Shown in pieces: positions 19,801 through 22,800 of a stretch of DNA of 64,000 nucleotides (the stretch's first letter is position 1; each line of letters opens with the position of its first letter). Both the position numbers and the translations under genes were made by a program. The notes beneath the pieces are model-generated. The model was not told the origin of the DNA. It did not search any database and was given only the letters and a program-made list of their open reading frames with translations. The stretch comes from Stylophora pistillata (lineage: Eukaryota), in assembly GCF_002571385.2 (NCBI RefSeq), contig NW_019217816.1, forward strand, positions 253,061 through 317,060, given 5' to 3'.

Positions 19801-22800
19801 AATCTGAATTTGTCAAACCAAAATAGATCTCGTTTCTTAACATTCTTCAGCAATACATACAGGTACTGGAGAGAAGACGTTCCCGTCAGGTTTGGAAACA
19901 TGTCCAAATTTAAACCAACCAGTCTCCTGAAAAACATCAAATTAGGAGGAAAAAAATAAAAATATGACCAAAACATAATTTCATGTGTTTAACGCTGTAA
20001 TCGAAGAATTTATCCCAATCGTTCTTTTTCATAACCATACAACTCATTAATATCCAAAAATAATCATCATGCTAATCTGGGTTACAAATGGCAACAAGGG
20101 CAGTGGCGAGGCGGAGAAGAAAAGTAATGGGAAAATAATCTTTCGAAAAAACACGTCAAACGTATCAGGACTTACAGTCGGGTTTCCAGTTTTGGTAAGT
20201 TGGCAAAAGCATTGTGACCAATAGAGTTCAGTTTCTCCCAAGTGAAATGTCTGCAAAGTAATAAAAATAAATCAATAAATAGTGCCAAGCCACACGCGTT
20301 GACCCTAAATTTTTAGAAATGTAATGCGGAAATGTGGGGAACTAGTGGTAACATCTTGGGAGTGAAAAGGTAAAAAAAAGTTCGTATTTTGGTTCCGGTT
20401 CATGGTCCAATGGTATGCTTTCCGATGCCCTTTGAAAACACATCCTTCTGGACTTTGCAAGGAAACGCATTTATAGAAAATTTGCTCAGCTTTGACTTCA
20501 GATCTTATAGTGAATATATTTTTTTAGTAGAATTACACAAACAGCGGAAACCATCCAAGAAATGGGAAAGTGAGAGAAGAAGAGGAAAAAGAACGGGTGC
20601 TATCTAAATACTTACAGCGTCTGCAGTTTAATAAGTCCTTTAAAAGCATCGTCGGGAATTTTCTCGATCGGATTGGAATTAAGGTCCCTGTTTAAAAGGA
20701 AAAATAAAAACTCAAGTTGTGAGCGCAGGATGTGGACAACTGCAGGATTGATTGTCTCTTTAACCTGCCTAAAGTTAAATAAAAGATTAATTTAAAGCTT
20801 TATTTTTACTTGAAAACCAGTACCCTTTTAAACAATAATTAGTTAGTTAAAAAATAGTATACTGAATGAAACATGTTTGTAGAGAAGAGTTTAGAGCAAT
20901 TTGAATTGAATGTCGTAAGTAATCCGGATTGCAATGATTTTTTTGTTCCGTGACAGCCAGAAGACGCGCGCCACTCTCTCAACCAATCAGAATCAAAACT
21001 AAAACCAATCACGAGTTGGAAACCCGCGTTTTCCCGCGTTTTAGACAGTTTGGTTGTTGTTGTTGTTTTTTTTTTTACTTGGAGATCTCATTGGCTCTGT
21101 AGGGTTTTGTTCCTTTCCTTTCCTTTAATTGGTCGTTGTGATTTTTTCGGTTTATGTTTTACGACACTCAATCCAAAACTGCACTACGAATGATCCTCAG
21201 AGGCACTTGTAGTAAGTAAATACTGAAGTAATGCTTGATGCCTAGACGGAGCTTGACGTCATGCATACAGTAAGTACGCCAAACAGACTTCCCAGACTCA
21301 CTTCATAGTTTGTGCCTGACCAAAACAAGATATGAATAGCGAAAAATACTTACAAAAAGGAAAGTTACTTGACATCTTTGAGAGAAACAGGTACTTGGCT
21401 GAGGTTGTTATTTGACAAGTGTCTAAATCATGGAAGAAGAAAAACATTTTCTGAGCTTAATTCGTTGATGGAGCCTCTTTATCGCTCATTTACTACATTA
21501 CCACTTTTGTAGAAGTAACCGTACGAAGAAATGCGCTCTTGAGACGGAAGTATAGTTCTTATCACATTTCTATTAGGTATACCTTGTACTTATTCTACTA
21601 CTCAACCAATAATTAAATCTCGAAAAAATGAAGGTGAAATCATTACAATGTTCGCATGTACTCACAAATACTCCAAAGAGTCCAGCCCTTTGAATCCGTC
21701 GTCTTCGATCTCACTTATTTCATTACGAAAACATATACTACACGAAATAAAAGAAAGAAGATTAAAGATATAAAGTAAGATGAATGGAAAACGATATGAA
21801 AAGATTCCATTCTTTGTCTGTCCTAGAAAAATGAGTAAGTGTTAGTGTACTACAACCTGTTGCAAAAATGTCGAGACACCTTGAGCAAACGGTGCGTTTA
21901 CTGACTTCATCAAATGGCAGAAAAGAAATTGAGTGCCAAAAAATAAAAAAAATAACAAAAAAAAAACGCTGCCCCCCTACCTCAATTGAATATTGTTCAT
22001 CGAAGTTTTGTACATATTACCGCTAAGCTACCAACATTGCGCGGGGGGGGGAGGGGGAGGGGGATACATTATGTTGGATCGCAACGTGAATGTTTATCCC
22101 ATGTCGCGGTAACAAATCACAACTACTTTGCAACTGGCTGTAGCTCTCTACAGCTGTCAACATATTTGCTAGTATCAGTATGATCTGAGGATATGTCTGT
22201 CTCACGAAAAGGTACTAAATATAACTTAAATTCTGTACTTTGTCTTAAATGGAGGAATTCTTTCCATTTAAAACTTCCACTCATGACTTATGAGCCTTTT
22301 AGTGCTCAGCGCCAGAAATACACGAGGCCACTATCCTTTTTAGGGAGAAAATCCCCACCCTAAATACCCCCCCCCCTTTAGTCCTCTTTTTACTTTTTTT
22401 AACCTTTTAAATCATAATCTCGAAGGACTTAGATACTCACAGCGTCTCAAGCTTGGACTGAATCTGGAAAGAACTGTTTCTTATTATGCGAATCCTGTTT
22501 GACTCGAGATTCCTGAAAAGAAAAAAGAGAAAGAGGAGCATTAAATTGCCGTTTAACTGTTAAACGGAGGAAGAACAAAATCACCCAAGGAGATGAATTT
22601 CCTCAAATAAAGTACAAACGTACAAATACTGAAGTTCTTTTAGACTTTCCAAAGCTTCTGCTGGGACTTCTGTAAGGTTGTTGTTATCAAGCCAGCTAAA
22701 AACAGACATAGAAGTACAGATATTGCAAAATATTAATAAGTCATCTAAAACGCTAAGTACATACGAAGGACTCCTGATACAGATACTTTAGAAAAAAAAA

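What the first reader, a model, noticed from the sequence alone, without database searches (positions are those of the whole stretch)
21354..21422. In-frame TAA in LGR exon 8 that overlaps a frame-preserving cryptic donor
Seen: exon 8 reads HLSNNNLSQVPVSLKDVK*LSF (TAA at 21367-21365, codon 224) in a gene with no other lesion in 3084 nt. The same bases form CAA|GTAACT, a weak phase-2 donor that would give a 54-nt exon (21422-21369) bypassing the stop. Skipping the whole 69-nt exon also keeps frame. Inference: sequencing error, null allele, splice-rescued stop, or a secreted 223-aa LRR-only decoy isoform.
Basis: partly seen in the sequence, partly recalled or inferred. Interest (0 to 1): 0.7.

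Follow-up and report, generated by a model that had tools for sequence, protein, structure and literature searches.

The report
False stop in intact coral receptor
The stop codon in this coral hormone-receptor gene is most likely an assembly error: public DNA and RNA data read lysine or glutamate at that spot and show the exon spliced normally, so the gene is likely ordinary and intact.

Summary
It is almost certainly not in the animal. In 8 of 8 runs laid (7 samples, 5 studies) the covering contigs and reads show AAA (Lys) or GAA (Glu); 0 of 25 raw RNA reads carry the T, and one run splits 11:11. Two runs of the sample flagged as possible source give AAA and GAA, so the window's T is a third letter at a heterozygous site. 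The 'cryptic donor' needs that same T and vanishes in both real alleles; any in-frame stop behind a G makes a phase-2 GT (41 of 167 possible nonsense changes here), and all 19 internal exons skip in frame. RNA joins the normal donor 21354 to exon 10 (22 reads, one contig); no cryptic or skipping joint is listed. 15 of 15 cnidarian homologues have a sense residue there. The one look-up of earlier notes showed nothing on this gene. Verdict: artefact; low interest.

The parts
13867..37653 (-). LRR-containing GPCR (LGR) gene, 21 coding exons, 3156 nt, 1051 codons, all 20 introns GT-AG and phase 2
   Evidence: Model, phases; 15 joints between exons 3 and 19 listed in RNA plus loose ends into exons 2 and 20; 88% identical over full length to Pocillopora proteins
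37469..37653 (-). Exon 1 (185 nt): hydrophobic N-terminus (likely signal peptide) and cysteine-rich LRR N-cap
   Evidence: aligns without gaps to P0002/P0122; its joint to exon 2 was not covered by the lays
36093..36164 (-).
   Evidence: RNA loose ends at 23629 match its 3' end (X24 11 reads, X16 contig)
21666..23629 (-). LRR exons 3-8: 23629-23558, 23425-23357, 23214-23143, 22695-22624, 22512-22441, 21737-21666
   Evidence: joints
21354..21422 (-). Exon 9 (69 nt), the exon of the finding; included at full length in RNA
   Evidence: joint 20686/21353 in X21 1, X22 2, X24 19 reads and the X16 contig; X24 loose ends at 21422 read into exon 8 (6 reads)
21365..21367 (-). Codon 248: TAA in the assembly; AAA (Lys) or GAA (Glu) in reads, a common two-allele site
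   Evidence: + strand T in X1, X4; C in X2, X3. X21 1/1 T, X22 2/2 C, X24 11 T and 11 C of 22, X16 contig T; window letter A in 0 of 25 raw reads
21363..21371 (-). Apparent cryptic donor CAA|GTAACT; its T is the unsupported base, so it is absent from both real alleles
   Evidence: GG or GA at +1/+2 with the read-supported letters; score 4.8 bits; no joint at 21369 listed
16353..20687 (-). LRR exons 10-20: 20687-20616, 20250-20176, 19926-19861, 19703-19632, 19303-19238, 18869-18801, 18032-17961, 17791-17720, 17401-17333, 17105-17034, 16424-16353; exons 15-17 and 18-20 look like a tandem triplet
13867..15490 (-). Exon 21 (1624 nt): last LRRs, hinge, seven-transmembrane domain, C-tail, stop
   Evidence: Pfam 7tm_1 E 2.2e-40, 139 bits against cut-off 30.5

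Best explanation
The TAA is most likely a single-base assembly error at a site where reads show two real alleles, AAA (Lys) and GAA (Glu), in an expressed, normally spliced 21-exon LRR-GPCR gene of a stony coral. Shown: the two sense alleles, the normal exon 9 to exon 10 joint, one copy of the locus in the assembly, sense residues in all homologues examined. Inferred: that sample S1 is the source of the assembly, and that the wrong letter arose when a heterozygous site was collapsed into one consensus letter (for example an ambiguity code replaced by a fixed base; idea from recall, untested). The 'cryptic donor' is a by-product of the same wrong letter. The intact protein likely works as a type-B-like LGR (bursicon-receptor-like): the LRR ectodomain would bind a cystine-knot hormone and the hinge and 7TM domain would signal through a G protein (inferred from the family, ligand untested).
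For: (DNA contigs): at 21367 the long contig of each of 4 of 4 runs differs from the window, 255 or more letters from its end: X1 T, X2 C (both sample S1, flagged as possible source), X3 C, X4 T. X2's contig 21024-21888 differs from the window only at this base. (RNA): 25 raw reads cover the base, 12 T, 13 C, 0 A; X24 is 11:11, so neither allele is depleted; the X16 contig has T. The canonical joint 20686/21353 has 22 raw reads (X21 1, X22 2, X24 19) and the X16 contig; one 1542-nt contig of X16 at depth 29.3 carries all 15 listed joints. First mates lie on +, as expected for a stranded library of a minus-strand RNA; one copy in G000; next 7TM paralogues 44-45% identical, so no intact duplicate explains the reads; 15 of 15 homologues have a sense residue (N 12, K 2, L 1) and exon 9 in full. 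Only 3 variable sites of S1 were seen in 2661 nt (about 0.1%, a lower bound), so an unrelated random error would seldom land on one: the error is likely tied to heterozygosity.
Against: S1 is only flagged as a possible source. In X4 a second record at depth about 102 overlaps 21367 and is not listed as different; bin arithmetic gives it about 18 nt, too short for an allele contig, but its letter was not shown. 0 of 25 reads bounds a TAA share only below about 11%, and a stop 788 nt upstream of the last junction would likely be depleted from RNA by nonsense-mediated decay; samples X21 and X22 have only 1 and 2 reads. The ambiguity-code idea fits 21300 and 21367 (both A on +) but not 22536 (G/A in S1, window G).
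Confidence: 0.95

Rival explanations
1. TAA is a real third allele (null, likely removed by nonsense-mediated decay) carried by the assembled colony, either because the source is not S1 or because the colony is mosaic or chimeric.
For: The base is in the assembly; contigs drop minor variants; the unlisted 18-nt record in X4; RNA would under-report a decayed allele (788 nt to the last junction).
Against: Both alleles of the flagged source sample are accounted for as AAA and GAA (X1, X2); X24 shows both sense alleles 11:11, leaving no room for a third in a diploid; 0 of 8 runs show the letter in a listed row; it needs a second mutation at exactly the polymorphic base.
Confidence: 0.035
2. The stop is real and is rescued by splicing: a 54-nt exon ending at 21369, or skipping of the 69-nt exon.
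For: Both routes would keep the frame.
Against: The GT does not exist in either read-supported allele; score 4.8 bits is below all 20 real donors; 22 raw reads use 21354; no joint at 21369 or from exon 8 to exon 10 among the 15 listed (2 rows hidden, equal in number to the two canonical joints missing from the list); none of 15 homologues lacks the five residues or the exon; frame-keeping is true of all 19 internal exons.
Confidence: 0.005
3. The locus makes a secreted 247-residue LRR-only decoy that would soak up the ligand, like the soluble RXFP1 splice variant.
For: Soluble antagonist isoforms exist among LGRs (PMC4561518, passage in section 13).
Against: No read with the stop; RNA runs on through exons 10-20 at similar depth; such decoys arise by splicing in the cited case, not by a fixed stop in the only gene copy.
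Confidence: 0.01

Closest known systems
Pocillopora LGR orthologues: XP_058972163.2 (P. verrucosa, P0122, 1049 aa), RMX49731.1 (P. damicornis, P0123), Logan cluster P0002 (104 members)
   Same: 88% identity over the whole model, all 21 exon segments aligned in 7 of 8 cluster members examined (P0123 lacks the N-terminus), full-length exon 9; 7TM 97.5% identical
   Different: Residue 248 is N in 7 and K in 1 of the 8; here K or E in reads, and a stop only in the assembly
Type B LGRs of invertebrates: bursicon receptor / rickets and cnidarian BursR-like receptors (Roch and Sherwood 2014, PMC4079206)
   Same: Signal-like N-terminus, long LRR domain, hinge, 7TM, no LDLa family in Pfam for P0002; 7TM 58-63% identical to 17 bilaterian rickets/LGR5-like-named proteins against 44-45% to the next G000 paralogues
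   Different: 19 LRR exons plus further repeats in exon 21, above the 13-18 quoted for BursR, owing to a three-exon duplication; ligand unknown; last exon scores higher to human type A receptors (312-319 bits) than to human LGR4 (203-206 bits) in the PDB
False premature stop from a consensus error in a collapsed diploid assembly (general class; from my own knowledge)
   Same: Single base, unsupported by reads, in a conserved and expressed gene
   Different: Here the wrong letter is a third letter at a heterozygous site rather than either allele
Soluble RXFP1 splice variant that antagonises relaxin (PMC4561518, passage seen)
   Different: Made by splicing from an intact gene and built on the LDLa module; nothing like it is seen in the RNA here

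Membership tests
LGR family (LRR-containing class A GPCR) | LRR ectodomain joined through a hinge to a rhodopsin-type 7TM domain | tested here: met
   7tm_1 139 bits on P0001; LRR_8 with 12 stretches on the 88% identical P0002; best PDB matches LHCGR, TSHR, FSHR, LGR4
Type B LGR (bursicon receptor / LGR4-6 kind) | Long LRR domain (13-18 in BursR, 16-18 in LGR4-6; 7-9 in type A), per PMC4079206 and PMC4561518 | tested here: met
   19 LRR exons: far above type A, slightly above the quoted type B range because of a three-exon duplication
Type B LGR (bursicon receptor / LGR4-6 kind) | No N-terminal LDLa module (which marks type C) | tested here: met
   No LDLa family among the 9 Pfam families of P0002; exon 1 of the model aligns to it without gaps
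Type B LGR (bursicon receptor / LGR4-6 kind) | 7TM domain groups with the BursR clade in a tree | tested here: inconclusive
   36 rows: the gene sits in a coral clade (99/97) that is in an open fork with the rickets clade, Actinia, medaka LGR5 (long branch) and two G000 paralogues; no verified type A row was available, and the search that supplied the rows was limited to 1008 aa or more
Type B LGR (bursicon receptor / LGR4-6 kind) | Binds a bursicon-like cystine-knot hormone or R-spondin | not tested
   No ligand sought or folded
Nonsense allele (true null or truncating) | The stop base is present in reads of the organism | tested here: not met
   0 of 25 raw RNA reads; none of 5 covering contigs; one 18-nt record in X4 unresolved
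Splice-rescued stop (nonsense-associated altered splicing) | RNA joints that bypass the stop (donor 21369, or exon 8 to exon 10) | tested here: not met
   None among 15 listed joints; 22 reads at the normal donor; isoforms under 3 reads are not listed
Splice-rescued stop (nonsense-associated altered splicing) | The alternative donor GT exists in the transcribed allele | tested here: not met
   GG or GA in the two read-supported alleles

The most novel reading that the evidence does not exclude
The assembled colony carries a real third allele at a Lys/Glu polymorphic base, a nonsense change that cuts its only bursicon-receptor-like gene to a secreted 247-residue LRR fragment and at the same stroke creates a frame-keeping donor that could rescue it; it would be missed here because contigs drop minor alleles and decay removes its RNA.
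Probability: 0.03. Interest if true: 0.45.

Novelty: not a real feature. Interest (0 to 1): 0.05.

Why it matters
Biologically it does not: the receptor looks intact and ordinary. Practically it is a warning for this genome (G000): at least one heterozygous site carries a letter that neither allele has, and it makes a false stop. Premature stops noted in other genes of this assembly should be checked against reads before they are called pseudogenes, null alleles or decoys. It also shows that 'stop overlaps a phase-2 donor' is no signal in LRR genes with symmetric phase-2 exons: about a quarter of all possible nonsense changes have that look.

Tried and rejected
Second, intact copy or haplotig in the assembly: none. 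Further LRR exons in the 12.5-kb intron 2: none by a pattern scan. Splice rescue and decoy: rejected on RNA and on the donor's dependence on the wrong base. Source of the 18-nt extra record in X4: a 63-nt search of G000 at E up to 10 gave only the window's own place; that search scored one candidate and cannot see an 18-nt match, so the point stays open. Tree for type A against type B: unresolved. Paper search on false stops from ambiguity codes: listing only, nothing used. No structure or complex prediction was run, as neither bears on the base call.

Full report
Observation. The window's minus strand holds a 69-nt exon at 21422-21354 that reads HLSNNNLSQVPVSLKDVK*LSF, with TAA at 21367-21365 and CAA|GTAACT across it. 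A scan for AG-exon-GT LRR units and a first exon gave a 21-exon model from 37653 to 13867: 3156 nt, 1051 codons, all 20 introns GT-AG and phase 2, one internal stop at codon 248.

What the gene is. The last exon holds a rhodopsin-type 7TM domain (Pfam 7tm_1, 139 bits), and its best PDB matches are LHCGR, TSHR, FSHR (312-319 bits) and LGR4 (203-206 bits). The nearest named proteins are from Pocillopora, 88% identical over the whole model; Oculina, Acropora and Actinia homologues follow at 76%, 67% and 47%. With 19 LRR exons and no LDLa module it has the build of a type B LGR as defined in PMC4079206 and PMC4561518 (passages seen by term search; supplements not opened, and the alignment there could settle the type). 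The 7TM is 58-63% identical to 17 bilaterian rickets/LGR5-like-named proteins and 44-45% to its nearest paralogues in G000, but the tree left the placement open and had no verified type A row. The locus is single-copy in G000.

Is the overlap of stop and donor more than chance? No. Every in-frame stop starts with T; if the base before is G, the GT begins at the third position of the previous codon and is phase 2 by construction, which matches every intron of this gene. 41 of 167 possible nonsense single-base changes in exons 2-20 lie behind a G, 23 of 77 for TAA, which also supplies GTAA. All 19 internal exons are multiples of three, so any can be skipped in frame. The site scores 4.8 bits on a matrix from the gene's own donors (positions +1 to +6), under all 20 real donors (5.6-10.5, leave-one-out); 64 of 1349 other GT sites in the gene score as well.

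Is the stop in the animal? 24 public runs were listed and 8 laid, from 7 samples in 5 studies. DNA contigs: at 21367, where the window has A on the + strand, X1 has T, X2 C, X3 C and X4 T, each in a contig of 823-865 nt with the site 255 or more letters from its end. On the coding strand these are AAA (Lys) and GAA (Glu). X1 and X2 are one sample, S1, flagged as a possible source of the assembly, so S1 is heterozygous Lys/Glu and not independent support; X2's contig differs from the window at this base alone. X3 carries a private change at 21223 and is likely another genotype; X4 shares S1's alleles and may be the same clone. RNA: 25 raw reads cover the base, X21 1 T, X22 2 C, X24 11 T and 11 C, and none has the window's letter; the X16 contig has T. 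Against this reading: in X4 a second record of depth about 102 overlaps the base without being listed as different; the bin depths give it about 18 nt, so it is likely a chance piece from elsewhere, but I could not see its letter. Contigs drop minor variants, no raw DNA reads were on offer, 0 of 25 only bounds the share below about 11%, and a true stop 788 nt before the last junction would likely be thinned by decay. X24's even split of two sense alleles nevertheless leaves no room for a third in a diploid.

Splicing. One search lists 15 joints between exons 3 and 19, all at the modelled ends. Exon 9 joins exon 10 at the normal donor in 22 raw reads (X21 1, X22 2, X24 19) and in the X16 contig; 6 X24 reads run from 21422 into exon 8. 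No joint at 21369 and none from exon 8 to exon 10 is listed. Two rows were hidden; two canonical joints (exon 4 to 5, and exon 8 to 9 in its plain form) are missing from the list, so these are likely the hidden rows, but I did not see them; isoforms under three reads are not listed. More decisive: with either read-supported letter the donor reads GG or GA, so it does not exist. All 15 cnidarian homologues aligned keep exon 9 whole with a sense residue at 248: N in 12, K in 2, L in 1 (these are 8 of the 15 listed members of the P0002 cluster, the 7 others being last-exon fragments, and 7 further LGR hits).

How the error likely arose. Three variable sites of S1 were visible in 2661 nt (21300, 21367, 22536), about 0.1% and a lower bound, so an unrelated error would rarely fall on one. 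The simplest account is a fault in collapsing a heterozygous site to one letter. A replaced ambiguity code (recalled from how some assemblers and gap fillers write bubbles; untested) fits the two sites inside the repeat-bounded piece 21084-21888, which both read A on +, but not 22536, which reads G.

Earlier notes. One look-up on this genome (8 of 9 fitting notes shown) returned none on this gene; three mention stops or breaks in other genes of this assembly, one with RNA lacking the breaks. I did not check them; they only suggest that the problem may be wider.

Verdict. The feature is in the assembly but most likely (0.95) not in the coral: a false stop at a common Lys/Glu polymorphism in an intact, expressed, type-B-like LGR. 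Novelty: not a real feature. Interest 0.05. The most novel reading left, a real third nonsense allele in the assembled colony, has about 0.03.

Noticed in passing
window 18869-16353 (minus), exons 15-20: Exons 15-17 and 18-20 look like a tandem duplication of three LRR exons (75-76% nucleotide identity pairwise against a median of 48% over 171 pairs). Both triplets are in 8 of 8 full or near-full members of the Pocillopora cluster examined; one triplet is missing in P0136 (a P. damicornis model) and in all 6 more distant homologues (Oculina, Acropora, Actinia, three Logan proteins). RNA splices all six exons in order. A likely lineage-specific lengthening of the ligand-binding domain.
   Followed up: partly
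window 21367: The real Lys/Glu polymorphism reverses charge and is common: Lys seen in S1, S3, S12, S17, S20 and Glu in S1, S2, S18, S20; expression 11:11 in X24. The position varies among homologues (N, K, L), so it is likely tolerant.
   Followed up: partly
window 21421 and 17990: The X16 contig differs at 21421 (would change His230 to Tyr; read from tables 5 and 5c) and at 17990 (silent by my reading of the codon): ordinary variants of sample S12.
   Followed up: no
window about 20957-21045 and 18559-18757: Short high-copy repeats in introns 9 and 15; the first has some 300-400 times single-copy depth in DNA contigs and both catch RNA reads from elsewhere.
   Followed up: no
G000 as a whole: If third letters at heterozygous sites are systematic in this assembly, other premature stops noted on it may be false as well.
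   Followed up: no
window 8918-9556 (+): 213-codon open frame with trypsin-like serine protease motifs (label from recalled motifs, not searched).
   Followed up: no
window 1844-3421, 45514-47028, 52317-53100, 61191-62120 (+): Broken open frames that look like retroelement reverse transcriptase pieces and a DNA-transposon-like fragment (labels from recall, not searched); the first runs into a 269-N gap.
   Followed up: no
L003-L013 (G000 C698, C103, C149, C654, C279, C799, C484, C693, C1481): 12 further LGR-like 7TM matches in the genome at 31-45% identity, all without stops in the matched part; L003 and L004 group together (97/98) nearer to this gene than the rest.
   Followed up: partly
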